59,165 nt of DNA, from the IMG/VR virus record IMGVR_UViG_3300028418_000005, positions 1-59,165 of that record; one strand, written 5' to 3'. Below the pieces are notes generated by a model, which was given only the letters and a program-made list of their open reading frames with translations, made no database searches and was not told where the DNA came from. This DNA comes from a virus. Its lineage: Duplodnaviria > Caudoviricetes. Positions 2,291 through 56,867 of the stretch are shown here, one piece after another. How positions within the stretch are numbered: position 1 is the stretch's first letter; each line of letters starts with the position of its first letter. A program made the position numbers and the translations under genes.

Positions 2291-2294
2291 TATG

Positions 2295-2611: not shown

Positions 2612-2613
2612 AT

Positions 2614-2844
2614 ATGAAAAAAATGGACAAGTATGAGGATAAGAAAGCCTCAATGGACGATTACTCGCACGAAAGAAAACTAAGAATAGACGGTAGATAT
2701 GAAGCTGCACATGGAAAAATGGCTGCAGCTAAAAACGATTTTGATCATGCACATGCTTTAAAGAAAGATGCGCACTATGATGCAAAGAATAGAAGAGATA
2801 AGAATTATAGACACCCTATATTAAAACATAATCACTCTAAATAA
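2614..2844 (+). CDS. hypothetical His/Asp/Lys-rich protein
   Basis: 76-aa ORF in plus-strand run. Confidence 0.65.
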   Translation: MKKMDKYEDKKASMDDYSHERKLRIDGRYEAAHGKMAAAKNDFDHAHALKKDAHYDAKNRRDKNYRHPILKHNHSK

Positions 2845-2852
2845 TAAATAAA

Positions 2853-8586: not shown

Positions 8587-8830
8587 ATATATAGTTATAA
8601 CAGATGTTGAAGAAAAAACAAAAGAAACTAAAGGTGGTTTGCTTTTGTCGTCTAAACAAAGAGAAGACATTAGATACAGACAAGCTAGAGTACTTGAAAT
8701 AGGTACCGAAGTTGTAGGTGTTAAAAAAGATGATAAAATTTATTTTGATCGTCACGCTGGTTTTGACATAGAGATAGACAGTGATATATATAAGGTGATT
8801 AAAGATTCTGACGTTGTTATAGTAATATGA
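8570..8830 (+). CDS. groES: co-chaperonin GroES (Cpn10)
   Basis: KETKGGLLL mobile loop, VKKDDKIYF, 86 aa, overlaps groEL end. Confidence 0.9.
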   Translation: MKAVGKYIVITDVEEKTKETKGGLLLSSKQREDIRYRQARVLEIGTEVVGVKKDDKIYFDRHAGFDIEIDSDIYKVIKDSDVVIVI

Positions 8831-12597: not shown

Positions 12598-12777
12598 ATG
12601 CCTATATTAAGCACTAAAAACACTATTGCCTGTGTTCGCTTGTTGAAAGGTTTGAAATCTCCTACTCCACCGGCACCAAGACCTGGAGATGATAAAATAA
12701 TTCAAGAACTAGGAGAGGAACCTATTTATATATTGCTTGAAAACAGTTCTAGTACAGATTTTATAATACAAGAATAA
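12598..12777 (+). CDS. 59-aa hypothetical protein
   Basis: MPILSTKNTIAC...PTPPAPRPG...DFIIQE; TAATG-coupled to collagen gene; read manually. Confidence 0.6.
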   Translation: MPILSTKNTIACVRLLKGLKSPTPPAPRPGDDKIIQELGEEPIYILLENSSSTDFIIQE

Positions 12778-13898
12778 TGGCTAATAAAAAAATATCACAA
12801 TTTACACCTCAAACTGACATAACTCAAATACAAGGTTTAGCTGGTTATGACCGCAATGAAAACATTAAAATTAGTGGTTCAGAACTAATAAGTTCTTTGA
12901 TAAATAATGGACTTGGTGGCATACAAGGACCTCCTGGCGAGCAAGGTGAACAAGGTATACAAGGAGAAACAGGTATTCAAGGACCTCCAGGTGAACAAGG
13001 AGAAGATGGTGTGCGAGGTTCTCAAGGTCTGCGAGGTGAAAAAGGTGATCCAGGAGAACAAGGTGAACAAGGAGAAAGTGGCGCTAACGGAGCTCAGGGA
13101 ATACAAGGAGTAAATGGAACTAATGGGACTAACGGAGCTCAGGGAGAAAGAGGAGAACCTGGAACAAACGGTAGAGATGGAGCTCAAGGAATACAAGGAG
13201 AGCCAGGAGAACAAGGTATTCAAGGATTACCTGGAGTTACAGGGGCGCAAGGTGGTGTAGGACCTGGTATTACACTTAAAGGTAATGTTGCTAATGTAAG
13301 TGATTTACCTGCAAGTGGAAATGCACAAGGAGACGCTTATATAGTACAATCAAATGATTCGATATGGATTTGGGATGGAGACGAATGGATTGATGGTGGG
13401 TCTATTCAAGGTCCTCAAGGGGTTCAGGGATTACCTGGAACAAACGGAACTAATGGAGCTAGAGGTATTCAAGGGGAAACTGGTGAACAAGGAGAGCAAG
13501 GTGAACCTGGAGTCGCTGGAGCTAGAGGACCAGCAGGAACTAACGGGACTAATGGAGCACAAGGAATACCTGGGGTTAATGGAACTAACGGTAGAGATGG
13601 AGCTAACGGATCACAAGGTGCTCAAGGTGAGCAAGGTGAAGAAGGAGCACAAGGTGCTCAAGGTCCAGCAGGTAGTCAAGGGCCAGCGGGCGCACAAGGT
13701 CCACAAGGTTTACAAGGCGACCCAGCTAAAACAGTTGACGTTATTGTTGATTTTGCTATTAATGAAGGTCCAATTACAAATATAGATTTAAACTCAAGAA
13801 GTGGTTGTGTAACTTTCACAACGGCATCTGGCTTTCAATTTGCGTTGGCTCCAGGAGAATGTAGACCTGAACTAAATCCAGATGATGAAGGTAGATAG
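12777..13898 (+). CDS. collagen-like (Gly-X-Y) tail fibre protein
   Basis: MANKKISQF anchor; two long GXY tracts separated by a GDAYIV...WIWDGDEW domain. Confidence 0.9.
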   Translation: MANKKISQFTPQTDITQIQGLAGYDRNENIKISGSELISSLINNGLGGIQGPPGEQGEQGIQGETGIQGPPGEQGEDGVRGSQGLRGEKGDPGEQGEQGESGANGAQGIQGVNGTNGTNGAQGERGEPGTNGRDGAQGIQGEPGEQGIQGLPGVTGAQGGVGPGITLKGNVANVSDLPASGNAQGDAYIVQSNDSIWIWDGDEWIDGGSIQGPQGVQGLPGTNGTNGARGIQGETGEQGEQGEPGVAGARGPAGTNGTNGAQGIPGVNGTNGRDGANGSQGAQGEQGEEGAQGAQGPAGSQGPAGAQGPQGLQGDPAKTVDVIVDFAINEGPITNIDLNSRSGCVTFTTASGFQFALAPGECRPELNPDDEGR

Positions 13899-31955: not shown

Positions 31956-33962
31956 ATGGCTTATCAATTACCAATTAAATATTACAACGCTTTTTGGTTA
32001 AAAAAAGTAGTAGGAAGTTCTATAAAATCAACTCAAAGTGATAATGCTTCAACAGTAACAACAGAGGTTGAAGTTGGAGGAAATGAAAATTCAACTGGAA
32101 CACTCAAAGGTGGTTACATAATACCTACATGGCCTGGTTTACCTTGGGGTGATAAACTATCAAAACCTGATGTTACAAATCCAGATGTGCTAATTCCATA
32201 CCCTTGTTTTCCTTGGGGAGGAAGAGATTGGAATTCTTATAATCCTATAGGTGGATCTGGGTCTCAATTAGATTTACCCGAATGCGGCGGCAGCTTAGTT
32301 AGTGTAAACCCTACTGAAGAACAAGGTAAAGAAAGACAGTGGGCTATTGAGGAAGCTAGAATATTTGGTGGTTACAATAACACCACTGTAGATTTTGGCG
32401 TTAAAGCTTACACTGTTGAAGAAGATAATCAACAAACAATTAGAAGCTCTTCGTTAATTTATTCCGGTATATTTAATTCATTAACTGGTGTAAATAATAC
32501 AAATGTTTTTTCAACAGCAAATCCTATAACTAAAAGTGTAGATCCAGAAAATGGATCTATTCAGAAGCTTTATTCCTATGATACTAACTTAACTATATTT
32601 CAAGAAAATAAAGTTAGCAAAGCATTGATAGACAAAGACGCAATATATTCTGCTGAAGGCGTTGGAACACCTGTTTCTTCTACTAAAACGGTTATAGGAC
32701 AGATTGTTCCTTACGTTGGTGAATTTGGTATAAGCAAAAATCCCGAGTCATGGGCTCAATTTGGTTTTAGACAGTATTTTACAGATAAATATAGAAACGC
32801 TGTAATGAGATTATCTAGAGATGGTTTAACTGAAATATCCTCATATGGTATGACTGATTATTTTAGAGATAGGTTTTCCACAATAACTGACCAACCTTTA
32901 AGAAGATCTTTATCATTTAGATATTTTGACGAAGGTTTAGTTGCTGAACAATATATAAATACCATTGAAATTTTTGATAGCTCTTGTAGTGCTGATAATA
33001 TAATAATAGGTTCTTCTATTCAAATAAATAACATACAAGTACCAGGTCTTTTTGTTACTAATGTATCGACAGGTAGTGGCTCTGGCATAAGGGTTGTTTC
33101 GGTTTCACTGCCATGGAGACCAGATACATTTGGATTAACATCATACAGTGAAATAGCAAGTGATTATCCAATATCTTTTGTTACATACGTTTATGATGAG
33201 CTTTTAGGTGCTTTTGATAACCATAACAATAATTACGTGTTATCTATAAAAGATGGTGTTACGCAACCATGTTCTAGAGTTTCAGAAGGTAGAGAAGTTG
33301 GAGACAACTTCGACTATACAAATCAATTTAGAACTTACAACACGTTTAATACAGTTAACTTTGACGAAAGCATAAATGGTTGGGTTAGTTTTTACAGCTA
33401 CAATCCTACAACGATGGGTAGTTTAAAAAATGAGTTTTATACTGTTAATAATTTCGACTTATATCAACATTATCAAGGAGGCCAACTAAATCATGGTAAT
33501 TTTTATGGTACACAATATAAATCTTCAATAGAATTTATATTTAATCCTAAGCCATCTATATCTAAAAACTTCCAAACAATAGGATATGAAGGTAGTAATG
33601 GTTGGCAAGTAGAATACTTTGTGTCAGATAGTACCGCAGCGTTGTTTAATACTTTTTCAAATACTTACTACCCAGCTCAAGACAAGATAAATAGTATTCC
33701 AAGTCTTCAAGAAGGTGAATATATAGATGAAAACACCCAAATGAAGCAATACGCTGGATTTTATTTAAAAGAAAACAAATATGTAGCTAATTTAGTTAAT
33801 GCTTCACAACCATTCGATGGTGAAGTTGTATTTGGAAATTCAATGAGTGGTATAAAAGGTTTTTACACAACAGTTAAATTAAGTACAGATGATTCTACTC
33901 AGCTAGGTGGAGTTAAAGAACTATATTGCGTGTCAAGTAAATTTGTGGTGTCATCACAATAA
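31956..33962 (+). CDS. tail stabilisation/nozzle-like protein, C-terminal beta-propeller part
   Basis: GSIQKL...IFQENKVS, GEFGISKNPES, YFTDKYRNAVMRLS, GWVSFYSY. Confidence 0.7.
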   Translation: MAYQLPIKYYNAFWLKKVVGSSIKSTQSDNASTVTTEVEVGGNENSTGTLKGGYIIPTWPGLPWGDKLSKPDVTNPDVLIPYPCFPWGGRDWNSYNPIGGSGSQLDLPECGGSLVSVNPTEEQGKERQWAIEEARIFGGYNNTTVDFGVKAYTVEEDNQQTIRSSSLIYSGIFNSLTGVNNTNVFSTANPITKSVDPENGSIQKLYSYDTNLTIFQENKVSKALIDKDAIYSAEGVGTPVSSTKTVIGQIVPYVGEFGISKNPESWAQFGFRQYFTDKYRNAVMRLSRDGLTEISSYGMTDYFRDRFSTITDQPLRRSLSFRYFDEGLVAEQYINTIEIFDSSCSADNIIIGSSIQINNIQVPGLFVTNVSTGSGSGIRVVSVSLPWRPDTFGLTSYSEIASDYPISFVTYVYDELLGAFDNHNNNYVLSIKDGVTQPCSRVSEGREVGDNFDYTNQFRTYNTFNTVNFDESINGWVSFYSYNPTTMGSLKNEFYTVNNFDLYQHYQGGQLNHGNFYGTQYKSSIEFIFNPKPSISKNFQTIGYEGSNGWQVEYFVSDSTAALFNTFSNTYYPAQDKINSIPSLQEGEYIDENTQMKQYAGFYLKENKYVANLVNASQPFDGEVVFGNSMSGIKGFYTTVKLSTDDSTQLGGVKELYCVSSKFVVSSQ

Positions 33963-37632: not shown

Positions 37633-40600
37633 ATGAACGAAGAGTATTTAGAGTTATTATTTTCCGCCTACGGAAACGAAGTAGGTGACGACTACGACGC
37701 ATTTAAAACTGCTATGAGTAATGAAGACTACTCAAGAATGCTATTTGAAACTCACTCTGAAGAATTAGGTGATGATTATGCGGAGTTTAATAAAGCTGTA
37801 GGTATAAATATTGAACCTTATGTTGAACCAGAGGAAGAAGTTTCTATGTCTGGAGAGTATGGGGTAAAAGAGCAAGATGTATTTGGCAGTTCTGAGCCAA
37901 TAAAACCAGTTATTAGTAAAGATATATCTTACGATGACTTTAATATGAAAGGACAAAATTCAGCTTTTGATAATGCTGAAGAGGATTTAGAAGATAAACT
38001 TTCTGCATTATATCCTAATTTAACCTTTGATACTCCTATAATGAACGGTGGTGTGTCTAGTGACATGCTAGATGTAACTAACGAAGACGGGGAAGTTTTT
38101 AGTTGGAAAATGAACACTGATTACAACGCTGGTAAAAGAGACTCAGATGGTGAGTATACAGTTGTAGATCCAGAAGATAGAGAGCAAGAAAGTAGAGATA
38201 ACTATATAAATTTTTTAGAGTTTGCCAATAAGTCTAAATATAAAGATGGTAAGTATAAAAATCCTAATGATATAAGAACTTTAGGCCCAGATTATATGGT
38301 TAAAAACGACCAAGGTCAAGATATAGAGATGCAAGTTACCCCTGGTTTGACTCAAAAAGCAATATCTATAATGAAATCAAACCCAGATGTAACATCATTA
38401 GATGAAGCTATAGATATAGCTGTTGACACTGAGTTTGGACAAATGAATATAGCTTGGCAAGGGTCTGTTCAAAATAAAAAAGCTAAAGAAAACTTTGAGT
38501 TTAAAAACAAAGTTAAATCATTAGCTTCTGATAATAATTTTAATCCTAACATAAGTGGTAGCGCAACTGGACTAGAAGCTAGTTCTGAATTAAATAATAC
38601 TATTGAAGTATTAGAAGAATTAGGTATGCCTAAAGAAGTTGTTGCTTCTGCTAGAGCTGATGCTGAGAATAATATAGGTTTTTTAGATTACCTAGCTAGT
38701 GGAGGATCTTCTAACCCTATGTCTTTTAACGCTGGAGACCCTACATTTACTAGACCTGCTTCTGTAGCTGCTAGAGGAGTTGTTAATTCAAACCAAGAAA
38801 TAAGAAACAACGTTAGAGCCTGGTTAGATGGTTCACAAACATGGGGAGAAAACACTAATGGACCGCTCGTTTTAAAAGCTTATAATGAGTTTGTTGATCA
38901 AAAAAGCAAAGAAGAAGCAGATAACAATATCAAACAAAAAGTAATTGAAGATGGTATAAACCAGGAACAGGTAATAAAAAGACAAGAACAATTATTAAAT
39001 GCCGAAGGTAATACGTTAAGTAAAGAGCAAGCTCTAGTACAAGCAGAGAAAGATGTAATAGCTTTAACTGTTCAAGATATTAAAACAAAAAAAGCTAAAG
39101 AAGATGGTGATAGAGTTTTAAAAGCTGAACTACCTTATTATGAGGGTAAGAGTAAAAGCAAAATAGAAGCATTACAATCTGAATTAGCTGAAATAAACAA
39201 ATTAGAAGAAGGGCAAGAAAAAGCAATAAAATATAAAGAATATTTAAATAAAGTTAGAGATTTCTTAGATGATGATGAGGTTAATTTATTAAAGCAGGGT
39301 GATAAGTTTGTAAGAAAAGACAGACAAGAACAAGCAGATAATTTAAATTCAATTGTTAAAAGTGGTGTTAAAGATTTACTTTTAGAAGCTCCGGACAAGC
39401 TAGATGAAAAGTTGTTAGATACAGACACTGAATTGTTAAACCTAGCTAAAGAAATAAAAAGAAAAGGTTTAAGTGAGACTTTAAATGAGGGCAGTGCTTT
39501 ACAACTAGTAGGAGCTTTAGGTCAAGAGCTTGTAGGAGCTGAAGGTAGTGCCTTTGAAGATTTTAGAAAAATAGAAAAATGGGTTGAAACTGGTGAAATG
39601 CCGGATTTATTAACACCATTGCCGGTATCAACTACAGATAGTTATTTAACTAGCCCTTATGGTGATGCTAGTGGTTCAGATCCTTTGGTAAAAAAATATA
39701 ATGATTTACTTCAATATAGATCTACATTACTTTTAGCTCAAAGTTTAAACGCGGATCCAACTTCTTTTGGTAAAACAGAAAGTGGTGTTGGTAGGTTTTT
39801 AGAAGGCGTAGTAGAAGCTACTCCTGAAGCAGTAGGCATGAATAGTGGTTTAACTAATGATAAACAGCGTGAATTAGGTTTTGACATCTTAGAAGACGTC
39901 TATGGTATTAAAAAGACGGATAAAGACAAGGCTAATCTATATCAAGTAGAGCACGATCTTTGGAAAAGTTCTGGTAAAATGATACCTGGCTTAATGAGAA
40001 TGGGAGCTGAGATATACTTAACAACTGTAGCAACTGGTGGCATGGGATTTGGTCCTGCTGTTTTAAGATCTGCTACATTTAGAACTCTACTAAGAGGTGG
40101 AGTATCAAGAGGTATGGCTGATAAAATTGCTGCTTACGGAACTGCTGTTATGACAGAATATGTAGGTTTACAAGGTAGTAATGCAATGGAAAGAAGTTTA
40201 GATTTTGGACCAGGTATAGAAAATCCAGGATTGTTTGCTCTAACAGCTAGTGCTATAAGATTAACAGGTGCACAAGCTTCTAGCAAGTTTAATGATGCCA
40301 TTATAGATACTTACAGAACAGGTTCTAATGCACAGAGAAATGCTTTAGAATATTTTTATGCTTTTCCTACTACGGCGTCTACAGAAGCTGGAGCTTTAAA
40401 ATATACTAATAGTTTAGTTGATAGATCAGTCAAGTCTTTAAGTAGAACTACAATGGCTGCTGGTGGTAAGATAACAGGAGCTGCTGGTGGTGCTTTAACC
40501 ATAAGCACAGCTGATAATGTTGGTGCAGTATTAGCAGGTGATAAAACTGTTGCTCAAGCCTTGAACGATGTTACCAATCCTGATCATTTAATGGAGTTAG

Positions 40601-43600
40601 GCGGAGCTTTATTGTTTTTAGGTATGTCTAGACCAGACAAGTATAGTAAACAGACTATAGAAAGATTTAGAACAGAGGTAGATTTAATAAGAGGGAACAA
40701 TCCACAGTGGAATAAACTTAGAAGATCTCTAGGTATGAAAACTGTTTCTGATAAAAGCGAAGAGTACGAACAAGGTGAAGAAGCTTTTTCTGAAAGAGTT
40801 GATTCAGCTTTAGAACTTAAAAAAGAGGAAATAAATAATAGTAACAAATCTGATGCTCAGAAAAATCAAGAAATATCTGCATTAGAATTTAACGCTAATA
40901 GATTAAAATTAAAAATACCTTTAGATGTTTTAGCTAAAGATTTGGCAAACCCAGCAGTCATGGGTAGCTATAAAGAATTAGAGCAAGCTGCTTATGCTAT
41001 ATCTACAGGAGGTTTTAATGCTAAGAACTTGTCTGTTATAGAAGCTGCATCTTTTACTAGTGACGGAACGTCTGGTGTTAAAATGTTAGAGTTTTATGGA
41101 TTAGATGCTGCTCAAGCCCAACAAGTTGTAGATTTTAGTTACTCAATGAGAGATGTAGCTAAAAGACATTTTCAAGGAGATTTAACTAATGCTAATTTTC
41201 AAAAATACATAGACGAATCTATAACAGAAAGTAGATTAGAATCTTCTAAGGAAAAAATAAAGAAAAATTATGAAGCTAAACGCATAGATAAAGCTGATTA
41301 TGAATCTCAAACAGAAGAAATAGATGCTCAACTAGATATTAACTTGAAATCTAAAAAGCGATTACTTGAAGCTGCTAAAGTAGAAAGAGCAGGCAAAGAG
41401 TTAGAAAAAATTGAAGAATACAAGAAAGCTGGTTTTGAAATTAAAGAAATGAACGATGCTGAAATGAAGAAATTCATGGAAGATAATGGTGGTAATTTTA
41501 GTTCAACTGGTTTTGGTTATCAAGGTGTTGTTAATGGTAAGTCTATAGCTTTAATTAACACGGATGCTACTGCTAGAGAAAATGTTGGTGGAACAGAGGT
41601 ACATGAAATATGGCATCATCCATTTGAAAGAAGACTAGGTGACGAAGCTATGGCTAAGAAAATAGAGTCTTTAATGAAAGATGAAAATCTAACAGAAGAG
41701 CAAGCATCAGCCAAAGTGGACAGCGAAGCTAGGGAATACTTAGATGGTTTTCAAAATGCTTTAGAAAACAGAGGTATATTAGACTTAGTTGACAAAGAAG
41801 TATTTTCAAGACCAGGAATACTAAAAGAGCTTGTAGAAATAGACAAAGACGGTAACGTAAGCCTTAAAGATATGTCTAATGTTTCTATACGTGAAATGAA
41901 AGAGTTTGTTAATGAGTTTATACAGTTAAATGAAAATGGTGCTTTTAATAATTTAAAATCTGAAGGACAAAGAAAAGCTGCTGAAAAACAAAACACTAAA
42001 GATCTTACAGAAAAAGAGTACAACGACGCGTTAAATGATCCTATTAAATTTGTAGACTTTGTCTTGAGTGGTAAGTATAATAGTAAAAATATTAATGATT
42101 TTTTAAAGCGTGAAGCAGATGCTTTAGGTATGGAAACTGAAACAACGGGTTTACAAGCATCGGAAAAAATAATATCTAAAGGTAGTAAAGACGCTTCTGA
42201 AGTAAACAAAAAAATTGAAACTAAAATTATTGATCAAGGTAGTGGTGGTGTAAGAGTTAGGGATATAAAAGATTCTAAGTTTAAAAAACAAATTACAGAT
42301 GAATTAACTAAAGCTAATAACACCATGATAGAGGTTAGAGCTAGAAGAGCAGCTAATAATCCTAGAATACAAGCTTTAGAACCTTCTAAAAGAGTTTCTG
42401 AAAAAGAATTTCAATCTGCTTTTAATGCTGAGTTTGTTGAAGCTTTAGGTCAGTACAAGCCAGTTGTTGATGGTAAAAGAATACCATTTGGAGCATATAT
42501 GAATCAACGTTTGACTCAACGATTTAAACAAGCTTTAGACAAAGCTAAGCAAGGTCAATTTGAAGGTCCTGAAGTTAGATTAGAACAACCCACGAAAGAA
42601 GGTGAAAGAGGTTTTGATACTGAATCAAAAGATCTTAACCCTGAAGAAGCTATGATAGCTAAAGAGTCAGGTAAAACTGAAACTACTAAAGAAACTAAAA
42701 CAATAAATCCATTAGAAGCTCCAAATGTAAAACCTAAAGCAAAAGAAATTGAAGATGCTATAGACTTTACAGAGGCAGATGCTGTAGGTATGCGTACAGG
42801 TGGTTTTAAAGGAGTAGGTGAAACTTACGGAGGTAAAGCTGCTTCAATAGCTTTTGGAGTTCCTGAAGCTAAAATAATGGATCCAAAGAAAAATCTTACT
42901 TATGCTAAGAAGATTAAAGATGGTATTCCAGAACCATCTGAAGCTGGTAATATTCAACAAGCTTTTACTAATAAAAGTAAAGTAGAAACATTTATTAAAA
43001 ACCTACCTGAGACAAATGTTAGTGACATGCAGACTAATATTGGTTTAGAAAAACTAAATGTATCAAGAGATGTATATGGTTATGGAACTGGTATTAATAA
43101 TAGAGTATTAAAAACTTTTTATAATAAAACTGGTAAAAGATCTAAAGGTTTGACTAGTCAACCTGCTATATGGGAATTAAAACCAGAGTTTAAAGGTAAA
43201 ATATCTAATGAGACTATAGCTAAAGTACAAAAAGAATTAGGTATTACAGAAGCTGGTCAATTAAATAAGTATGATAGAAACATTGGTCAATTACTTAAAG
43301 GAGTTGCTAAGCTAGAAGGTTATCAAATAGCTAATACAGTTGTAAGAAAAAAGATAGAGGGTATGGATATTAAGTCCGCAACCCCTACAAAACAATTATT
43401 AGCAGATTTAAAGGCTGGAGCAAATAGATTTCAGGCGTCAGCAAAAAAGAAAAGCATTCAAGAAAAAAGTGATGAAAGACTAGATAAAAAAGCTCCAGGC
43501 ACAAAATCAATTCAAAGTCAAATTGGTCAAAAAACAGTTGTTCAAAGAGTTACTAAAGCTATGCTTGGGGACGTGGCTGATGCAGGAGGAAACTTTTTCC

Positions 43601-46600
43601 TTAAACAAGGAGGTTTCATGGGTTCGTCAGTGTGGAACAATTCTGGTGCATTGTTTGAAGCTGCTTTAAGAAAAGGTTTTCCTTTTGTAGGAAATTATTT
43701 AAATAAAATAGAGTCGCTCACTAAAGACTTCATTGTTAAAGAAGAAATGACAGAAGCTAAAGCTAGAAAAAAAGCTGAAGAGGTAATGTCTTTAACTAAA
43801 GAAGCTTTAGATTTAGGTTTAACTTTAGAAACTTCTTCATTGCAGAAAGCGATGAAAGAACAAATAAAAAGTAATCCAGAAAAATACAACAAGTATAGTG
43901 ACAAACAATTAAAGCAATTAGATAAAGCTATTAATGCTCAAGACTATAAAAAGTTAGAGAAAAACTTAACAGAATTATCTGATATAAAAGCAGGTAAAGA
44001 CTTGTTAATAGATATGTTTAAAGAAATATATGATAAAGATTCTAAAAACTTAGATGTATTATCTTACATGATGTATCATGCTAATTCTAACTCACATCCT
44101 ATGAGAAACTTTGCTACTGTATTAGGCAAGGAGTTAGGTTTAAAAGGTAGAGGACATGAAGAACACACTCTTCCTTTTGGTGAATTTAGTCAACTAATGT
44201 TAGATGCTATAACAGGGAAAAATGTAGATCTACCTGGTTTTAAAAAATGGATTAATGAAAATTACTTTCAAGAAGTAACTAGTAAAGGAGATCCTAATAA
44301 TGGAATATTTAAAACTAAAGAAATATTAGATCACCCTAGAAGATCAACTGATAAATTAGGCAATGATCTAGAATCTTGGGACTCCGCTAATCAACTTCAT
44401 CCCGAACTTAAAATACAACTTGCTGAAGCATTAGCTGGTAAAAGAAAATTTAAAGATGTAATATCGGCAGATATAAGAAAATATAATGAGTATTCGTCAG
44501 AAAGAGGTTATGTAAATCCTAATAAAATGAATAGACTAGGTGTTACTGACGCTAAAAGATACAACGTTGAGGTTCCTAAAAAGTTACAAAACAATTCTAA
44601 CATAATAGAAATACAAAATCATTTAATACACCAGCAGCTTATAGGCAAGATGAGTGCTAAAGAAGCTAGAGAAATGATGGATTTAGCTATTAAAGATGCA
44701 CCTGCTAGGTTAAAAGCTACAAGAGCTGATTATAAAATGTTAAAACAATCTCCTGTACTTAACTTAAGTGAAAAAATGTCTACTAATGATTTGGTTAGAA
44801 AAGCTAGAATTATAGACAAGGCACTGGCTAATGCTAGAAAAACGAACAAAAAACCTAAAAAAATTAGAGTATTTGATTTTGATGATACTGTTGGTGTTAG
44901 CAAAAATAAAGTATTTGCATTAAGAGAAGGTGTAAAAAAAGTATTAAATGCGGAGGAGTTTGCTAAAGAAGGTTTAGATCTTATAGATGAGGGTTGGGAA
45001 ATGGACTTTTCTGATTTCAATAAAGTAACTGAAGGTGGTAAAGGTCCATTATTTGACTTGATGAAGACAATGAAAGAAGCTAAAGGTGAAAGAGATATGT
45101 TCATACTAACTGCTAGAGCTCCTGAAGCTGCACCTGCAATACACATGTTTTTAAAGGAAATGGGTATTGATATACCTATAGAAAACGTTGTTGGACTAGG
45201 TAAATCTACAGGCGAAGCTAAAGCTAATTGGCTAGTTGGTAAAGCTGCAGAAGGATATAATGATTTTTATTTTGCTGACGATGCACCTCAAAATGTTAAA
45301 GCAGTTCGTGACGCTTTAGAAGTTCTTGATATTAAATCTCAAGTTCAACAAGCTAGAATGAATGCTAGTGAAAAGCTAAGTGAGGACTTTAATAAAATAC
45401 TAGAAGAAAAAACAGGTATAGGTGCGGAGAAAGTGTTTTCTGATATTAAAGCTGAAATAAGAGGTAATAAAGCTAGAAAGCAAAAATTCTTTATACCACC
45501 ATCTGCCGAGGATTTCTTAGGTTTATTATACGCTACATTACCAAAAGGTAAAAAAGGTGAAGCTGCATTAGACTTTTATCAAAAGAATTTATTTGATCCT
45601 TACACTAGAGCTACAGATAATTTATCAAGAGATAGAGTGAATTTAATGGATGATTTTAAAGCTCTTAAAAAAGAATTAGATGTTCCAGCAGATCTTAGAA
45701 AAGAAACTAAATCAGGTTTTACTAATGAACAAGCTGTAAGAGTTTATATGTGGGGAAAAGAAGGTAAGGATGTTCCTGGATTATCTAAGTCTGATTTTAA
45801 AGAACTAAATGACATTATTGAAGGTGATGCTAAATTAAAATCTTTTGCTGATCAAATATTTGAAATAACAAAAGGAGATGGATACAATACCCCGGGTAAG
45901 GACTGGGCTGTAGGTACTATAACAACAGATCTTATAGAGGTTCTTAACAAAACTAAAAGAGCTAAGTATCTAGAACCTTGGAAACAGAATGCTGACATTA
46001 TATTTAGTAAGGAGAACTTAAATAAGCTTGAGGCAGCTTATGGCAAAAAATATAGAGAAGCTATGGAAAACACGCTTTCTCGTATGAAATCTGGTAGTAA
46101 TAGAACATCAGGTGGTAATAGATTAAGTAATCAAGTTTTGGATTATATAAATAACTCAACTGGTGTCACCATGTTCCTTAACACTAGATCTGCGCTACTA
46201 CAAACAATATCAGCTGCCAACTTTGTAAACTGGAGTTTTAATAATCCGCTAATGGCTGGTAAAGCTTTTGCTAATCAACCTCAATACTGGAAAGACTTTG
46301 TTAAGCTAATGAACTCTGATTATTTAAAAGACAGGCGTAATGGTCTTAAACTTAATATAAATGAATCTGAAATAGCTGATGCTGCTAAAACGTCAAAGAA
46401 TAAAGCTAAAGCTGCTTTAAATTATATATTAGAAAAAGGTTACTTACCTACTAAATATGCAGATAGTTTTGCTATAGCATCTGGTGGAGCTATGTTTTAT
46501 AGAAATAGAATAAATGATCTTGTTAAAAAAGGTTTTACTATTAGTGAAGCAGAAACTCAAGCAATGAAAGAGTTTAGACAAGTGTCAGAAAAATCTCAAC

Positions 46601-47496
46601 AGTCTTCTGATCCTAGTAAAATATCTTCTCAACAGTCTGGTGATTTAGGTAGGATAATACTACAGTATGCTAATACACCTATGCAGTATGCTCGTATACA
46701 AAAAAGAGCTGTACAAGATATAGTGAACGGAAGAGGAGATATGAAAGCTAATGTTAGTAAAATAATATACTATGGATTTTTACAAAACTTAATATTCAAT
46801 GCTTTACAACAAGGAGCATTTGCTTTAGGATTTGGAGATGACTTTAGTGATAAAGATAAAGATGATAAGTTAGTTAATACTGTTAACGGTATGTTAGATT
46901 CTTCTCTTAGAGGTTTAGGATTAGGCGGTGTATCTCTTCAAGTTCTTAAAAATTTAGGTTTAGATGTTTATAAAAGATCAAAAAGAGATAGACCAGAATA
47001 TGTAGATTCTTACTATAAGCTGCTTGAATTTTCACCTGCTATAAAAAGTAAGCTATCAAGGTTTAAGTCTGCAGCCTACCCGTTTGATAGTAAAAAACGT
47101 AGAGCAGAAGTTTTTGATAAAGGTTTTAGCTTGGACAATCCTGCTTATGAATCGATGGCTAAGGTTGTAACAGCAGTTACTAATGTGCCTTTAGATAGAA
47201 TGTATTTGAAAATTGATAATTTGAAAAATGCTACAGCAGATGAGACTGAAACTTGGATGGGAGTTGCTAACTTTCTAGGTTGGCCAACATGGCAGCTAGA
47301 ACCTAAAGAATATAATAAAGCTAATAATGTTAGTGTTAAATCAACAGTTCCAAAAGTTAAAACAAAAAAGGAAAAAATTGATAAATTAAAATCTATGACC
47401 TATATACAGCTAAGGAATAAAGCTAAAAAAGAAGGTAAAGAGTATTCAGGTAAGAATAAAAAAGAATTGATAGATATACTAAAGAAAAATATGTAA
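37633..47496 (+). CDS. giant polyvalent virion/ejection protein (zincin HExxH, sigma-like segment, HAD domain, C-terminal Rho-N/HeH-like motif)
   Basis: 3287 aa; HEIWH at 41602; IPFGAYMNQRL at 42481; VFDFDDT/LTAR/FADDAPQN HAD motifs at about 44870-45295; MTYIQLRNKAK...KNKKELIDIL at the end. Confidence 0.75.
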   Translation: MNEEYLELLFSAYGNEVGDDYDAFKTAMSNEDYSRMLFETHSEELGDDYAEFNKAVGINIEPYVEPEEEVSMSGEYGVKEQDVFGSSEPIKPVISKDISYDDFNMKGQNSAFDNAEEDLEDKLSALYPNLTFDTPIMNGGVSSDMLDVTNEDGEVFSWKMNTDYNAGKRDSDGEYTVVDPEDREQESRDNYINFLEFANKSKYKDGKYKNPNDIRTLGPDYMVKNDQGQDIEMQVTPGLTQKAISIMKSNPDVTSLDEAIDIAVDTEFGQMNIAWQGSVQNKKAKENFEFKNKVKSLASDNNFNPNISGSATGLEASSELNNTIEVLEELGMPKEVVASARADAENNIGFLDYLASGGSSNPMSFNAGDPTFTRPASVAARGVVNSNQEIRNNVRAWLDGSQTWGENTNGPLVLKAYNEFVDQKSKEEADNNIKQKVIEDGINQEQVIKRQEQLLNAEGNTLSKEQALVQAEKDVIALTVQDIKTKKAKEDGDRVLKAELPYYEGKSKSKIEALQSELAEINKLEEGQEKAIKYKEYLNKVRDFLDDDEVNLLKQGDKFVRKDRQEQADNLNSIVKSGVKDLLLEAPDKLDEKLLDTDTELLNLAKEIKRKGLSETLNEGSALQLVGALGQELVGAEGSAFEDFRKIEKWVETGEMPDLLTPLPVSTTDSYLTSPYGDASGSDPLVKKYNDLLQYRSTLLLAQSLNADPTSFGKTESGVGRFLEGVVEATPEAVGMNSGLTNDKQRELGFDILEDVYGIKKTDKDKANLYQVEHDLWKSSGKMIPGLMRMGAEIYLTTVATGGMGFGPAVLRSATFRTLLRGGVSRGMADKIAAYGTAVMTEYVGLQGSNAMERSLDFGPGIENPGLFALTASAIRLTGAQASSKFNDAIIDTYRTGSNAQRNALEYFYAFPTTASTEAGALKYTNSLVDRSVKSLSRTTMAAGGKITGAAGGALTISTADNVGAVLAGDKTVAQALNDVTNPDHLMELGGALLFLGMSRPDKYSKQTIERFRTEVDLIRGNNPQWNKLRRSLGMKTVSDKSEEYEQGEEAFSERVDSALELKKEEINNSNKSDAQKNQEISALEFNANRLKLKIPLDVLAKDLANPAVMGSYKELEQAAYAISTGGFNAKNLSVIEAASFTSDGTSGVKMLEFYGLDAAQAQQVVDFSYSMRDVAKRHFQGDLTNANFQKYIDESITESRLESSKEKIKKNYEAKRIDKADYESQTEEIDAQLDINLKSKKRLLEAAKVERAGKELEKIEEYKKAGFEIKEMNDAEMKKFMEDNGGNFSSTGFGYQGVVNGKSIALINTDATARENVGGTEVHEIWHHPFERRLGDEAMAKKIESLMKDENLTEEQASAKVDSEAREYLDGFQNALENRGILDLVDKEVFSRPGILKELVEIDKDGNVSLKDMSNVSIREMKEFVNEFIQLNENGAFNNLKSEGQRKAAEKQNTKDLTEKEYNDALNDPIKFVDFVLSGKYNSKNINDFLKREADALGMETETTGLQASEKIISKGSKDASEVNKKIETKIIDQGSGGVRVRDIKDSKFKKQITDELTKANNTMIEVRARRAANNPRIQALEPSKRVSEKEFQSAFNAEFVEALGQYKPVVDGKRIPFGAYMNQRLTQRFKQALDKAKQGQFEGPEVRLEQPTKEGERGFDTESKDLNPEEAMIAKESGKTETTKETKTINPLEAPNVKPKAKEIEDAIDFTEADAVGMRTGGFKGVGETYGGKAASIAFGVPEAKIMDPKKNLTYAKKIKDGIPEPSEAGNIQQAFTNKSKVETFIKNLPETNVSDMQTNIGLEKLNVSRDVYGYGTGINNRVLKTFYNKTGKRSKGLTSQPAIWELKPEFKGKISNETIAKVQKELGITEAGQLNKYDRNIGQLLKGVAKLEGYQIANTVVRKKIEGMDIKSATPTKQLLADLKAGANRFQASAKKKSIQEKSDERLDKKAPGTKSIQSQIGQKTVVQRVTKAMLGDVADAGGNFFLKQGGFMGSSVWNNSGALFEAALRKGFPFVGNYLNKIESLTKDFIVKEEMTEAKARKKAEEVMSLTKEALDLGLTLETSSLQKAMKEQIKSNPEKYNKYSDKQLKQLDKAINAQDYKKLEKNLTELSDIKAGKDLLIDMFKEIYDKDSKNLDVLSYMMYHANSNSHPMRNFATVLGKELGLKGRGHEEHTLPFGEFSQLMLDAITGKNVDLPGFKKWINENYFQEVTSKGDPNNGIFKTKEILDHPRRSTDKLGNDLESWDSANQLHPELKIQLAEALAGKRKFKDVISADIRKYNEYSSERGYVNPNKMNRLGVTDAKRYNVEVPKKLQNNSNIIEIQNHLIHQQLIGKMSAKEAREMMDLAIKDAPARLKATRADYKMLKQSPVLNLSEKMSTNDLVRKARIIDKALANARKTNKKPKKIRVFDFDDTVGVSKNKVFALREGVKKVLNAEEFAKEGLDLIDEGWEMDFSDFNKVTEGGKGPLFDLMKTMKEAKGERDMFILTARAPEAAPAIHMFLKEMGIDIPIENVVGLGKSTGEAKANWLVGKAAEGYNDFYFADDAPQNVKAVRDALEVLDIKSQVQQARMNASEKLSEDFNKILEEKTGIGAEKVFSDIKAEIRGNKARKQKFFIPPSAEDFLGLLYATLPKGKKGEAALDFYQKNLFDPYTRATDNLSRDRVNLMDDFKALKKELDVPADLRKETKSGFTNEQAVRVYMWGKEGKDVPGLSKSDFKELNDIIEGDAKLKSFADQIFEITKGDGYNTPGKDWAVGTITTDLIEVLNKTKRAKYLEPWKQNADIIFSKENLNKLEAAYGKKYREAMENTLSRMKSGSNRTSGGNRLSNQVLDYINNSTGVTMFLNTRSALLQTISAANFVNWSFNNPLMAGKAFANQPQYWKDFVKLMNSDYLKDRRNGLKLNINESEIADAAKTSKNKAKAALNYILEKGYLPTKYADSFAIASGGAMFYRNRINDLVKKGFTISEAETQAMKEFRQVSEKSQQSSDPSKISSQQSGDLGRIILQYANTPMQYARIQKRAVQDIVNGRGDMKANVSKIIYYGFLQNLIFNALQQGAFALGFGDDFSDKDKDDKLVNTVNGMLDSSLRGLGLGGVSLQVLKNLGLDVYKRSKRDRPEYVDSYYKLLEFSPAIKSKLSRFKSAAYPFDSKKRRAEVFDKGFSLDNPAYESMAKVVTAVTNVPLDRMYLKIDNLKNATADETETWMGVANFLGWPTWQLEPKEYNKANNVSVKSTVPKVKTKKEKIDKLKSMTYIQLRNKAKKEGKEYSGKNKKELIDILKKNM

Positions 47497-56108: not shown

Positions 56109-56867
56109 TTACAGGAAGTCAACCACTTGCGAGTGATCTACATTCTCTATAAGTTTGTCTACAGCTTGCTTTTTTAACTCTGAAACCCGCACATAAGAGG
56201 ATATACCTTTTATATCTAGTTTTTCTGCTATTTGTTTAGCTGACCACTTAGGACCATCAAGTCCATAACTTTTACTAAGAGTAAAAACTTCGTTCCACTC
56301 TAGGTGTTTTGTTAATAAACTCATAATATAGGTGTTTAACATTTCTTCGTTATAAGGATCTGACTGATCAGGTATTTGATAAATCATATCTTCGTCGTCA
56401 TATGGTTTTTTGTCTATACTTAAAAACATAGAATTAAAAAACATAGCAACCATTTTTTTATCTTTACCTCCATCTTTGCGTATTTCATTTAGCTTGTGTT
56501 CTGGTATCCTCATTTGAGCTCTGTTTTTGTCTATTTCTCTTCTTATACCTCCACGTATGCGTTTAGCAAAAAAAGATTTTAATGATTTCAACTTGTCTTC
56601 TGATTCTAATAACTTATCTCTATCAAGCTTACCTACAGCTTTACAAAGTTGCATGCTACCTTCTTGTAATAAATCCATGATAGACATAACACCTGAAGCT
56701 TCTTGAGCTGTTGAAAATTTTCTAGCTACATTTTCCACTAAAGGTAAAAATATTAATTTAAGCTCTTCATCAGTGTAATCTACATAGTCTCTTACAGGTA
56801 TTATAGCTAAAGCTCTTTTAATATCTTCTTTATACCTTATATAGTTTTTTACATTATATTTTTTCAT
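56109..56867 (-). CDS. sigma-70 family RNA polymerase sigma factor
   Basis: LVENVARKF, MDLLQEG..LCKAV.K.D, KRIRGGIRREI, MRIPEH, region-4-like AKQIAEKL...VRVSELKKQAVDKL. Confidence 0.85.
   Translation of the reverse strand: MKKYNVKNYIRYKEDIKRALAIIPVRDYVDYTDEELKLIFLPLVENVARKFSTAQEASGVMSIMDLLQEGSMQLCKAVGKLDRDKLLESEDKLKSLKSFFAKRIRGGIRREIDKNRAQMRIPEHKLNEIRKDGGKDKKMVAMFFNSMFLSIDKKPYDDEDMIYQIPDQSDPYNEEMLNTYIMSLLTKHLEWNEVFTLSKSYGLDGPKWSAKQIAEKLDIKGISSYVRVSELKKQAVDKLIENVDHSQVVDFL

What the first reader, a model, noticed from the sequence alone, without database searches (positions are those of the whole stretch)
42240..42660. Sigma-region-2-like segment inside the virion protein: an injected transcription factor?
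Seen: DELTKANNTMIEVRARR...EFQSAFNAEFVEALGQYKP....IPFGAYMNQRLTQRFKQAL follows the sigma-70 region 2 pattern (L...A.+...D....L.+A+..Y.P....F..Y....+). I found no RNA-polymerase DxDGD-type motif in this protein, whereas crAss-like phages inject an RNAP. Inference: this phage may instead inject a sigma-like factor that steers host RNAP to the early promoters, with the free-standing sigma taking over later. The resemblance is by eye only.
Basis: inference. Interest (0 to 1): 0.72.

Follow-up and report, generated by a model that had tools for sequence, protein, structure and literature searches.

The report
Sigma-like domain inside giant phage protein
A 100-residue stretch in the middle of a 3,287-residue, probably virion-carried phage protein looks like a distant relative of the RNA-polymerase-binding core (region 2) of bacterial sigma factors, so this phage may deliver a polymerase-docking module with its DNA, though no binding or injection has been shown.

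Summary
The quoted peptides lie at aa 1556-1635 of one ORF (37633-47496, +, 3287 aa), and the protein has no DxDGD motif.

The resemblance to sigma is more than chance:
- **Conserved module.** The segment (aa 1549-1648) was found in 88 of 119 homologous giant proteins, then in 155 of 186.
- **Profile comparison.** Against an alignment of 14 true sigmas, its family profile scores hhalign probability 88.9%, P 2.4e-6, in register with regions 2.1-2.3. None of 100 column shuffles and none of 19 other windows of the family came close.
- **Fold.** An AlphaFold model (pLDDT 86) finds sigma domain-2 structures as its best PDB matches (TM 0.50-0.75, rmsd 2.5-3.2 Å). All Foldseek E-values are above 0.8.

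Pfam and HMMER searches do not reach significance. No sigma region 3 or 4 was detected.

The host protein is a multi-domain giant: HExxH, sigma2-like, a domain of unknown fold, HAD phosphatase, helical C-terminus. It sits after a crAss-type muzzle gene.

"Injected transcription factor" remains inference. My best reading is a sigma2-only module that docks host core polymerase. Interest 0.7; a new variant of a known kind.

The parts
37633..47496 (+). Giant ORF, 3287 aa (P0001), last gene of the + strand structural block; putative virion cargo / polyvalent-type protein
   Evidence: At least 208 homologues of 1807-5753 aa in metagenomes. It follows a crAss-muzzle-domain gene. The syntenic giant gene in Elemovirus is annotated 'structural protein'.
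41602..41616 (+). HEIWH (HExxH zincin-type motif), aa 1324-1328
   Evidence: An HExxH lies within 500 aa upstream of the sigma-like module in 114 of 121 giant homologues, median 186 aa upstream. H, E and H are nearly invariant columns in A4. No Pfam peptidase hit.
42277..42576 (+). Sigma region-2 (sigma2-domain)-like helical module, aa 1549-1648; this is the finding
   Evidence: hhalign against 14 sigmas: Prob 88.9%, P 2.4e-6, 67 columns, matching RpoD about 370-436, with controls. AF2 pLDDT 76-91 over this part. Foldseek sigma2 matches have TMt 0.50-0.75. Pfam Sigma70_r2 is sub-threshold in 3 of 43 family members.
42577..42699 (+). Acidic, low-confidence linker, aa 1649-1689
   Evidence: AF2 pLDDT 44-69 for model residues 110-150. 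pI 4.8. The gap between the two modules is 30-51 aa in 84 of 85 homologues.
42700..43467 (+). Conserved alpha/beta 'domain 2', aa 1690-1945; basic, fold without PDB match
   Evidence: Found in 116 of 119 homologues. AF2 pLDDT mostly 93-98. No non-sigma PDB or BFVD match with E<=0.001. pI 9.6.
44830..45372 (+). HAD-type phosphatase domain (DFDDT motif at aa 2415-2419), polynucleotide-kinase/phosphatase-like
   Evidence: PHROG 415 'polynucleotide kinase', E 1.7e-5, aa 2400-2576. FDFDDT at aa 2414. Some homologues add a P-loop kinase (PF06414/PF13671) just after the motif.
45370..47352 (+). Conserved all-helical C-terminal domain, aa 2580-3240
   Evidence: 38-86% identical in 148 of 186 family proteins, always at the C-terminal end. 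AF2 pLDDT 76, all alpha. No meaningful PDB match, prob <=0.2. Atlas leads to LPD38/LPD39 at 0.90-0.92.
31956..33962 (+). Muzzle-like tail protein (context)
   Evidence: Pfam PF25729 crAss_MUZ_C, E 2.9e-9, 37.7 bits against a cut-off of 27. PHROG 14478, virion structural protein.
56109..56867 (-). Free-standing phage sigma factor (context)
   Evidence: Pfam Sigma70_r2 E 9e-5. The six-frame PF04542 search of the record hits only this place. PHROG 351.

Best explanation
Residues about 1549-1648 of the giant protein are a real, conserved and very divergent homologue of the sigma-70-family sigma2 domain (regions 2.1-2.3). The protein carries no detectable sigma3 or sigma4.

The module is one bead in a multi-domain protein: variable N-terminus, HExxH zincin motif, sigma2-like module, unknown alpha/beta domain, HAD phosphatase, helical C-terminal domain. 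By gene order this protein is a virion cargo protein.

Most likely mechanism (inferred, not shown): after ejection with the DNA, the sigma2-like module docks on the beta-prime clamp helices of host core RNA polymerase, the surface that sigma region 2 uses. Cargo proteins are few per virion, so it would act locally. It would bring a polymerase to the entering genome, or bring the neighbouring domains to the polymerase, rather than titrate the cellular polymerase pool. The phage encodes no polymerase of its own, and its free-standing sigma would act later.

Shown here: conservation, profile homology and fold resemblance. Inferred: packaging, ejection, polymerase binding and any promoter specificity.
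For: **Conserved module**
- An iterated HMM finds the module in 88 of 119 homologues and in 155 of 186 after adding cluster representatives.
- It sits 30-51 aa upstream of domain 2 in 84 of the 85 homologues that have both.

**Profile-profile comparison**
- The query was a 105-sequence family alignment. The template was 14 true sigmas: 5 from E. coli, the window's own sigma, and 8 from phages.
- Result: Prob 88.9%, P 2.4e-6, score 40.7, 67 columns, with family columns 1-80 aligned to RpoD about 370-436.
- With only 6 sigmas as template it was 52%, P 1.4e-4, in the same register.
- The two subfamilies score 84% and 50% separately.
- Controls: reversed profile 0.1%. 0 of 200 and 0 of 100 column shuffles reached the real score (maxima 21.8 and 17.9). 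19 other family windows scored at most 15.0.
- In a blind scan of aa 1250-2450, only the window starting at 1550 scored (74.7%); 17 windows were at or below 0.5%, and the overlapping window at 1500 gave 8.5%.

**Fold**
- The AF2 model of aa 1540-1950 has pLDDT 86.1.
- In Foldseek against the PDB, about 33 of the 48 listed rows are sigma chains or sigma fragments. That chain F is sigma is my reading of the entry titles.
- Matches to sigma2-only structures:

| Entry | Description | TMt | rmsd | columns | prob |
|---|---|---|---|---|---|
| 8b3z_B | SigE N-terminal domain | 0.75 | 2.5 Å | 86 | 0.84 |
| 5h6x_B | RpoS regions 1.2-2 | 0.62 | 3.2 Å | 89 | 0.57 |
| 4x8k_A | SigA domain 2 | 0.50 | 2.8 Å | 87 | 0.85 |

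- In BFVD, of the four rows with prob >=0.69, two are named sigma factors (0.92 and 0.72) and two are unnamed (0.96 and 0.69).
- The all-helical C-terminal model of the same protein gave no sigma hit.

**Weaker signals**
- Pfam Sigma70_r2 is the only family hit by more than one of 43 family members: 3 of 43, best E 0.023.
- An Atlas neighbour cluster is 100% PF04542, at score 0.87. This is a lead only.

**Context**
- The muzzle domain lies upstream.
- No PF00623 or PF00940 match in the record.
- A free sigma is present here and in 2 of 5 related contigs, the two most complete ones.
- In crAss001, cargo proteins number about 6-12 copies per virion (PMC10172136, passages read).
Against: **No sequence-to-profile search reaches significance**
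- The window segment does not hit Sigma70_r2 at E<=10.
- 0 of 43 family members reach Pfam's 24-bit cut-off.
- Family profiles against PDB sequences found no sigma at E<=10. Hits were enoyl-CoA hydratases at E about 0.8-1 and D-Tyr-tRNA deacylase at E 0.002 on the FGAYM motif.
- A profile search of 1.84 billion representatives gave 70 hits and no recognisable sigma. 10 of the 26 hits under 1200 aa were scanned, and 0 of 10 showed a sigma Pfam domain.

**Other negatives**
- All Foldseek E-values are above 0.8 for sigma chains, with 0 hits at E<=0.001 in the PDB or BFVD.
- hhalign against a narrow alignment of the phage's own sigma family gave 0.2%; that template had Neff 1.5.
- By the alignment, the F427 and Y430 equivalents are kept. 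W433/W434 and region 2.4 are not, and there is no sigma4, so ordinary promoter recognition is not expected (residue roles recalled).
- Packaging and ejection rest on synteny alone.
- The syntenic giant protein of the cultured relative Elemovirus lacks the module. No cultured phage in the 50,697-record collection matches this part of the protein.
Confidence: 0.55

Rival explanations
1. Full first-reader model: the module is a true initiation factor. Delivered with the DNA, and perhaps freed by the HExxH domain, it gives host core RNAP specificity for early promoters until the free sigma takes over.
For: - Everything that supports the sigma2 homology.
- The two most conserved positions of the family, F80 and Y83 of alignment A3, align with sigma70 F427 and Y430. 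Their role in -10 melting is recalled.
- A sigma2-only protein can act as a sigma (T4 gp55; recalled, not tested here).
- The record has an AT-rich, gene-poor 2.8 kb at one end, carrying a three-copy 31-nt repeat at 1149, 1760 and 2069.
- The module is basic, pI 9.9.
Against: - No sigma4 or sigma3 was detected in aa 1250-3200.
- The W433/W434 and region 2.4 equivalents are not conserved.
- Nothing links the repeats to this protein.
- Host sigma-A could transcribe the early genes without help.
Confidence: 0.2
2. The domain descends from sigma2 but has been exapted for something other than polymerase binding. Candidates are DNA-end or pilot binding, a packing or assembly module of the cargo protein, or a helper subdomain of the upstream HExxH enzyme.
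For: - The module always travels with the HExxH motif (114 of 121), and mostly with domain 2.
- The sigma residues recalled as contacting beta-prime (Q406, E407) are not kept in the alignment.
- Both the module and domain 2 are basic.
Against: - No peptidase or other non-sigma fold ranks with it in Foldseek.
- The known job of the sigma2 scaffold is to bind the clamp helices.
Confidence: 0.25
3. Chance resemblance: a family-specific helical bundle unrelated to sigma.
For: - No HMMER-level hit to any sigma.
- Foldseek E-values are above 0.8.
- Small helical bundles often superpose by chance.
- Sigma chains are very numerous in the PDB, so many rows are effectively one observation.
Against: - hhalign P 2.4e-6 in the expected register. 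The score rose as the sigma template was made more diverse (31.1 to 40.7), while decoys fell.
- Two subfamilies score independently.
- Sigma70_r2 is the only recurrent Pfam family.
- The helical C-terminal model gives no sigma hits.
Confidence: 0.12
4. Sigma mimic for host shut-off: the module occupies the clamp helices and blocks host sigma binding throughout the cell.
For: It uses the same docking surface as the best explanation. Phages commonly inhibit host transcription (general knowledge).
Against: - Cargo proteins are present at roughly 6-12 copies per virion in the one crassvirus measured (PMC10172136). That is far fewer than the cell's polymerases.
- The phage itself needs host RNAP, since no polymerase was found.
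Confidence: 0.07

Closest known systems
Sigma-70 family, domain sigma2 (Pfam Sigma70_r2; for example E. coli RpoD residues about 370-436)
   Same: The helix pattern and register of regions 2.1, 2.2 and the start of 2.3 agree. The conserved positions match: N-L at the helix break, an acidic residue opening helix 2.2, (Y/F)-x-P, then G/K, then F-x-x-Y. The predicted fold superposes on sigma2-only structures at 2.5-3.2 Å.
   Different: It is below every Pfam and HMMER threshold. It has a 10-residue insert between 2.1 and 2.2, no W433/W434 or region 2.4 signature, and no sigma3 or sigma4. It is embedded at residue about 1550 of a 3287-aa protein rather than being a free 20-70 kDa subunit.
Phage T4 gp55 (late sigma made essentially of a sigma2-like domain); recalled, not tested here
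   Same: A very divergent, region-2-only sigma relative encoded by a phage.
   Different: gp55 is a small free protein made after infection. It works with gp33 and the sliding clamp. No comparison was run.
Giant ejected virion RNA polymerases: N4 gp50 and crAss-like phi14:2 gp66 / crAss001 gp47-49-50
   Same: A protein of 2000-3500 aa encoded at the end of the structural block, downstream of the muzzle and cargo genes in crassviruses (PMC10172136). Its presumed role is in the first minutes of infection.
   Different: No polymerase domain: no DFDxD or DxDGD motif, no PF00940 or PF00623 match, and no similarity by tblastn to any of 50,697 phage records.
Polyvalent proteins of phages and conjugative elements (Iyer et al. 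2017, PMC5512222)
   Same: Many unrelated domains in one giant polypeptide, with a zincin-type HExxH motif and RNA or nucleotide-repair-type enzymes. It is presumably delivered with the DNA. There are Atlas leads to LPD38 and LPD39.
   Different: No Pfam LPD or MPTase family is matched. The word 'sigma' occurs 0 times in that paper's main text (its supplements were not seen).
T4 Alt (a virion-packaged enzyme that modifies host RNAP on entry)
   Same: The same concept: a packaged protein that reprograms host polymerase at the moment of DNA entry (described in PMC5512222).
   Different: Alt is an ADP-ribosyltransferase. No such domain was found here.

Membership tests
Sigma-70 family (sigma2 domain) | Sequence match to Pfam Sigma70_r2 above the gathering score (24 bits) | tested here: not met
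   The window segment gives no hit at E<=10. The six-frame PF04542 search of the record hits only the free sigma. 3 of 43 family members hit below threshold, best E 0.023.
Sigma-70 family (sigma2 domain) | Remote homology to region 2 by profile-profile comparison, in the right register | tested here: met
   hhalign Prob 88.9%, P 2.4e-6, 67 columns matching RpoD about 370-436. Shuffles, the reversed profile and 36 other windows all score far lower.
Sigma-70 family (sigma2 domain) | Sigma2 fold | tested here: inconclusive
   AF2 pLDDT is 76-91 over the module. The best PDB matches are sigma2, with TMt 0.50-0.75 and rmsd 2.5-3.2 Å. However, Foldseek E-values are 0.86-7 and there are 0 hits at E<=0.001.
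Sigma-70 family | Region 4 (sigma4, -35 / beta-flap binding), usually with region 3 | tested here: not met
   hhalign of 100-aa family windows over aa 1250-1750 and 1900-3200 against the 14-sigma alignment: all at or below 0.5%, except the sigma2-like window and its overlapping neighbour.
Sigma-70 family | -10 recognition and melting residues of regions 2.3-2.4 (sigma70 Y430, W433, W434, Q437, T440; roles recalled) | tested here: not met
   In the alignment, the F427 and Y430 equivalents are the family's most conserved residues. W433/W434 align with variable polar residues, and region 2.4 lies outside the confident alignment.
Sigma-70 family | Binding to the beta-prime clamp helices of core RNAP | not testable with these tools
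   This needs a binding assay or a structure.
crAss-like / multisubunit-type virion RNAP | DFDxD (or NADFDGD) catalytic motif in a double-psi beta-barrel | tested here: not met
   The regex finds no D.DGD, and the only D.D.D is DKDKD at aa 3073. The DFDDT at 2415 belongs to a HAD domain. No PF00623 match in the record, while the controls rang in 14 of 14 genomes.
N4-like virion RNAP | T7-like single-subunit polymerase domain (PF00940) | tested here: not met
   No match at E<=1. The control genomes also gave none, as expected for cellular genomes, so this negative is weak. Pfam on the whole protein found no polymerase family.
Polyvalent proteins (Iyer et al. 2017) | Giant multi-domain protein of a phage combining a processing metallopeptidase with several effector domains or LPDs | tested here: inconclusive
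   HExxH is conserved in 114 of 121 homologues. There is a HAD/PNK-like domain, and kinase domains occur in homologues. No Pfam MPTase or LPD hit. LPD38/LPD39 appear only as Atlas leads at 0.90-0.92.

The most novel reading that the evidence does not exclude
This would be a virion-delivered sigma. The sigma2-only module of the giant cargo protein, possibly released by the adjacent HExxH peptidase, captures host core RNA polymerase at the cell entry site. It starts transcription at the repeated AT-rich elements of the incoming genome end, coupling DNA entry to early gene expression. That would be a third strategy, beside injecting a whole polymerase (N4, crAss-like phages) and injecting a polymerase-modifying enzyme (T4 Alt).
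Probability: 0.2. Interest if true: 0.88.

Novelty: new variant of a known kind. Interest (0 to 1): 0.7.

Why it matters
**What would be new**
- Phages that lack their own polymerase must take over the host enzyme within seconds of DNA entry.
- The known packaged solutions are a whole virion RNAP (N4, crAss-like phages) or a modifying enzyme (T4 Alt).
- A sigma-type docking domain built into an ejected giant protein would be a new solution.
- It would also give a first functional handle on a large family of uncharacterised giant proteins in marine Bacteroidota-type phages. At least 208 homologues were found at 90% clustering, and 70 representatives at 50% clustering carry the module.
- It extends the known range of the sigma2 fold to a fused, region-2-only form.

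**Searches for prior description**
- Full-text searches found no description of such a domain in a virion or polyvalent protein (listings only).
- A term search in PMC5512222 also found none. That paper's supplements were not visible and could list it.

Tried and rejected
**Searches that found nothing relevant**
- Pfam on the whole protein found only noise (COX5A, MpsC). On the segment it gave a sub-threshold AIP3 coiled-coil hit, 22.6 bits against a cut-off of 31.6. I take this as compositional.
- phmmer of the whole protein against PDB sequences: 0 hits.
- megablast and tblastn of three parts of the protein against 50,697 phage records: no match. The phage's own sigma gave no match either.
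- BLASTP of the segment against the phage's own sigma was not significant, best E 0.79.
- hhalign against the narrow alignment of that sigma family gave 0.2%. The template had Neff 1.5, so this is uninformative.

**Hits judged to be chance**
- The A3 profile hit human D-Tyr-tRNA deacylase (2okv) at E 0.002 over the 'TY.P..GK.FGAYM' motif. I judge it a chance motif match: that part of the model is helix, hairpin, helix, and no other line of evidence points there.
- Weak hits of windows 1790 and 1840 to a sigma region-3 helix (E 0.01) vanished with the better template.

**No verdict or unavailable**
- Complex prediction paired RPOC_FLAJ1 residues 200-380 with alignment A2 of the module. The score was 0.10 against a mark of 0.32, and the controls were not run. 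This counts neither for nor against binding.
- The HMMs for the sigma-like module, domain 2 and the C-terminal domain were run on the syntenic Elemovirus giant protein and found nothing. No cultured model was identified.

**Rejected reading**
- Reading DFDDT at aa 2415 as a polymerase DFDxD motif is rejected. It is the DxDxT motif of a HAD fold, and PHROG 415 covers aa 2400-2576.
Full report
**1. Where we are**

The window is a whole IMG/VR virus record of 59,165 bp, estimated 92% complete. It has 26-39% G+C.

Its large terminase is 45% identical to that of Flavobacterium phages of the genus Elemovirus. It is 64% identical to that of an uncultured 60.8-kb podovirus, MW202828. All 87 matching records are phages of Flavobacterium, Cellulophaga, Tenacibaculum or Maribacter, or that one uncultured virus.

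The + strand block from 2853 to 47496 carries:
- a GroEL-like chaperonin;
- a collagen-like fibre;
- terminase, portal and virion proteins;
- two large tail proteins. The second (31956-33962) has the C-terminal domain of the crassvirus muzzle protein: PF25729, E 2.9e-9, above its cut-off.

Three ORFs without family follow (133, 239 and 838 aa). The block ends with one ORF of 3287 aa, 37633-47496.

The - strand block encodes ribonucleotide reductase, MazG, thymidylate synthase, primase-helicase and a 252-aa sigma factor at 56109-56867.

In crAss001 the genes after the muzzle encode cargo proteins and giant RNA-polymerase-associated proteins. [quoted passage not shown]

**2. The observation**

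The protein has no D.DGD motif, and its only D.D.D is DKDKD in a lysine-rich tail. No PF00623 or PF00940 match exists anywhere in the record. For PF00940 the control genomes did not ring either, so that negative is weak.

**3. The segment is a conserved module**

A search with aa 1480-1940 found 208 proteins at E<=0.001 among the 7,998 scored, of which 120 were listed. All were 1,897-3,527 aa and came from metagenomes.

By BLAST, the parts conserved in most of the 119 listed homologues are aa about 1700-1940 and 2400-3230. The finding's segment is covered in only 17-46 of them.

An iterated HMM recovers the segment in 88 of 119. In the 85 homologues that also have the downstream domain, the gap between the two is 30-51 aa. 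The one exception has 109 aa.

A profile of 12 segments was searched against 1.84 billion cluster representatives and gave 70 hits at E<=0.001. Of these, 44 are 1,373-3,716 aa and 26 are shorter. I scanned 10 of the 26 short ones against Pfam, and none showed a sigma domain. With these added, 155 of 186 family proteins carry the module.

Two subfamilies exist. One has '...NN..v..LAkkAA...SGy..eL..L..tY.P...GK.vPFGAYMN..LP.RYg.IL'. The other has '...qY..la..AlGy..KGDI..edA..Fv..ef.sI...f.P.....FsTYv...'. They are homologous to each other: hhalign 97.6%, E 3.4e-12.

**4. Is it sigma-like? Tests that failed to show it**

- The window segment has no Sigma70_r2 hit at E<=10.
- The Pfam model searched in six frames hits only the free sigma, both in this record and in two related records.
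- Family profiles against all PDB sequences found no sigma at E<=10.
- The 1.84-billion-protein search reached no recognisable sigma.
- BLASTP against the phage's own sigma found nothing. hhalign against an alignment of that sigma's close relatives also found nothing.

**5. Tests that do show it**

I built a template alignment of real sigmas from annotated records. It holds E. coli RpoD (C-terminal 254 aa), RpoS, RpoH, FliA and RpoE, plus the window's sigma.

*First template (6 sigmas).* hhalign of the 105-sequence family alignment against it gave Prob 52%, P 1.4e-4, score 31.1. Family columns 7-80 aligned to regions 2.1-2.3.
- 0 of 200 column shuffles reached that score: mean 10.4, sd 2.0, maximum 21.8. 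The reversed profile scored 12.3.
- 19 other 100-aa windows of the same family scored 9.8-21.7.

*Second template (14 sigmas).* I added eight phage sigmas found with RpoD.
- The result rose to Prob 88.9%, P 2.4e-6, score 40.7 over 67 columns, in the same register.
- The subfamilies alone scored 84% and 50%. The reversed profile scored 0.1%.
- The controls fell: 100 shuffles reached at most 17.9, and the 19 windows reached at most 15.0 with prob <=0.5%.
- A blind scan of aa 1250-1750 and 1900-2450 picked out only the window starting at 1550 (74.7%) and its overlapping neighbour (8.5%). The other 17 windows were at or below 0.5%.

A signal that grows as the template becomes more diverse, while decoys shrink, is what true remote homology looks like.

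*Weaker, concordant signals.*
- Scanning 43 family members against Pfam one by one, Sigma70_r2 is the only one of 23 families hit by more than one member: 3 of 43, best E 0.023. In the smaller set it was 1 of 12.
- The protein-language-model Atlas lists a cluster that is 100% PF04542 among the neighbours, at 0.87. This is a lead only.

**6. Fold**

AlphaFold2 was run on aa 1540-1950 with a 43-row alignment. Mean pLDDT was 86.1 and pTM 0.65. The module scored 76-91, the linker about 44-69, and domain 2 mostly 93-98.

The module consists of helices 9-22, 24-35, 51-68 and 80-100 of the model. There is a break at the conserved Asn-Asn and a short hairpin before the last helix.

*Foldseek against the PDB.* There was no hit at E<=0.001; the best was 0.86. 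About 33 of the 48 listed rows are sigma chains of holoenzyme or initiation complexes, or isolated sigma fragments. That chain F is sigma is my reading of the entry titles. The sigma2-only entries superpose well:

| Entry | Description | TMt | rmsd | columns |
|---|---|---|---|---|
| 8b3z_B | SigE N-terminal domain | 0.75 | 2.5 Å | 86 |
| 5h6x_B | RpoS regions 1.2-2 | 0.62 | 3.2 Å | 89 |
| 4x8k_A | SigA domain 2 | 0.50 | 2.8 Å | 87 |

*Foldseek against viral models.* Again nothing was significant. Of the four rows with prob >=0.69, two are named sigma factors (0.92 and 0.72). The other two are Bacillus phage G Gp3 (0.96), whose function is not named, and the unnamed E4WM78 (0.69).

*Contrast.* The all-helical C-terminal domain of the same protein (pLDDT 76) returned only transporters, armadillo repeats and the like at prob <=0.2, and no sigma.

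The many sigma rows are one fold seen many times, not independent votes. I therefore rate the fold test as supportive but inconclusive on its own.

**7. What kind of sigma relative**

Only sigma2 is present. No window elsewhere in the protein resembles regions 3 or 4.

By the alignment:
- The conserved Asn-Leu of 'EANLRLV' matches the family's 'NN(L/M)'.
- The acidic residue opening helix 2.2 is kept.
- '(Y/F)-x-P ... G/K ... F-x-x-Y' matches 'F-E/D-x ... G ... F-S-T-Y'.
- The family's invariant Phe and near-invariant Tyr fall on sigma70 F427 and Y430.
- The positions of W433/W434 are variable and polar.
- Region 2.4 is outside the confident alignment.
- A 10-residue insert separates 2.1 from 2.2.

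The functional roles of those sigma70 residues are recalled from the literature, not tested. It is therefore a sigma2-fold relative, not a member of the sigma-70 family as Pfam defines it.

**8. The carrier protein**

| Part | Residues | Evidence |
|---|---|---|
| Variable N-terminus | 1 to about 1300 | Covered by BLAST in 0-8 of 119 homologues |
| HExxH motif (HEIWH) | 1324-1328 | Present upstream of the module in 114 of 121 giant homologues, median 186 aa; nearly invariant in the full-length alignment; no Pfam peptidase hit |
| Sigma2-like module | 1549-1648 | Sections 3-7; pI 9.9 |
| Acidic linker | 1649-1689 | Low pLDDT; pI 4.8 |
| Domain 2, alpha/beta | 1690-1945 | In 116 of 119 homologues; no structural match; pI 9.6 |
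| Variable stretch | 1946-2399 | Covered by BLAST in 14-38 of 119 homologues |
| HAD phosphatase, DxDxT = DFDDT | about 2400-2580 | PHROG 415 'polynucleotide kinase', E 1.7e-5; many homologues add a P-loop kinase (PF06414/PF13671) about 35 aa after the motif, but the window protein has no P-loop |
| All-helical C-terminal domain | 2580-3240 | 38-86% identical in 148 of 186 proteins, always at the C-terminal end; many invariant polar residues |
| Lys-rich tail | 3241-3287 | pI 10.1 |

This architecture fits the 'polyvalent protein' concept: many effector domains plus a processing metallopeptidase, delivered with the DNA (PMC5512222, passages read). However, no Pfam LPD or MPTase model is matched, and LPD38/LPD39 appear only as Atlas leads.

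That the protein is packaged and ejected is inferred from three things:
- its place after the muzzle-like gene;
- the parallel with crassviruses;
- the 'structural protein' annotation of the giant gene at the same position in Elemovirus (3,694 aa) and of other genes of that block in MW202828.

Those syntenic giants are not detectably homologous in the module, domain 2 or the C-terminus. The slot is conserved but its content is not.

**9. Mechanism**

*Shown.* A conserved sigma2-type module sits in a giant multi-domain protein at the cargo position. The record has no polymerase gene. A separate sigma is present, here and in the two most complete of five related contigs.

*Inferred.* The module docks on the beta-prime clamp helices of host core RNAP after ejection. 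Cargo proteins are few per virion, so a stoichiometric block of host transcription is unlikely. A local role is more plausible. It could recruit a polymerase to the entering DNA. It could also place the neighbouring enzymatic domains on the polymerase, or help transcription-driven genome entry as in T7 and N4 (recalled).

Whether it confers promoter specificity is open. Region 2.4 and sigma4 are missing, which argues against ordinary promoter reading. Sigma2-only factors do exist, though (T4 gp55, recalled).

The one complex-prediction job gave no verdict and is not used as evidence.

**10. Verdict**

My probabilities are:
- about 0.85 for sigma2 homology or fold;
- about 0.5 for polymerase docking;
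- 0.55 for the combined best explanation as stated.

It is a new variant of a known kind: a known domain in an undescribed, fused, region-2-only and probably virion-borne form.

Literature checks:
- Searches for sigma factors packaged or co-injected with virions returned only jumbo-phage and N4 polymerase papers (listings and abstract starts seen).
- The polyvalent-protein paper does not mention sigma in its main text. Supplements are closed and could hold domain lists that bear on this.

Noticed in passing
window 1-2850 (repeats at 1149-1179, 1760-1790, 2069-2099): An AT-rich (26% G+C), gene-poor end of the record carries a three-copy 31-nt direct repeat, TATTATCTTT.TAG.TTTGTATTTA.TTTGT, at 74-100% identity, plus several two-copy AT-rich repeats. 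These could be early promoters or another regulatory array. Nothing here links them to the giant protein.
   Followed up: partly
window 42700-43467 (aa 1690-1945 of the giant protein): 'Domain 2' is an alpha/beta domain present in 116 of 119 homologues. It is predicted with pLDDT mostly 93-98, is basic (pI 9.6), and has strongly conserved polar motifs (NLTYAKKI.DG.PE.SEAG.IQ; RSKG..SQ; GITP.G.LN.Y.R.IGQ.LKG.AK). It has no PDB or BFVD match, so it may be a new fold or enzyme.
   Followed up: partly
window 44830-45372; homologues P0010, P0027, P0037, P0060: This is a HAD-type phosphatase (DFDDT), like the phosphatase half of polynucleotide kinase. Many homologues insert a P-loop kinase (Pfam Zeta_toxin/AAA_33 labels) about 35 aa after the motif, making a full kinase-phosphatase. 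The window's protein has no P-loop. That would fit an RNA or DNA end-repair activity delivered against host nucleases.
   Followed up: partly
window 7030-8586 (+), and 8570-8830: A phage-encoded GroEL-like chaperonin (PHROG 5725, E 8e-133). Relatives annotate a GroES next to it (MW202828, Elemovirus).
   Followed up: no
L027 (NC_055854.1 48851-59935) and L013 (MW202828.1 741-12320): The nearest cultured or named relatives carry giant genes (3,694 and about 3,860 aa) in the same slot after the tail genes. These share no detectable similarity with the sigma-like module, domain 2 or the C-terminal domain. The cargo slot is conserved while its content is replaced.
   Followed up: partly
window 42406-42540 (aa about 1592-1636): The family motif 'L..tY.Pe..GK.FGAYM' matches human D-Tyr-tRNA deacylase 1 (2okv) at E 0.002 in a profile search of PDB sequences. 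I take this as a chance motif match.
   Followed up: partly
window 12777-13898 (+): A collagen-like repeat tail-fibre protein, matching 49 PHROG tail and fibre families (best E 8.7e-47).
   Followed up: no
window 56109-56867 (-): The free-standing sigma belongs to a very abundant family: 8,000 of 8,000 scored candidates had E<=0.001, and the top 120 are 77-100% identical. It has no tblastn match in 50,697 deposited phage genomes.
   Followed up: partly
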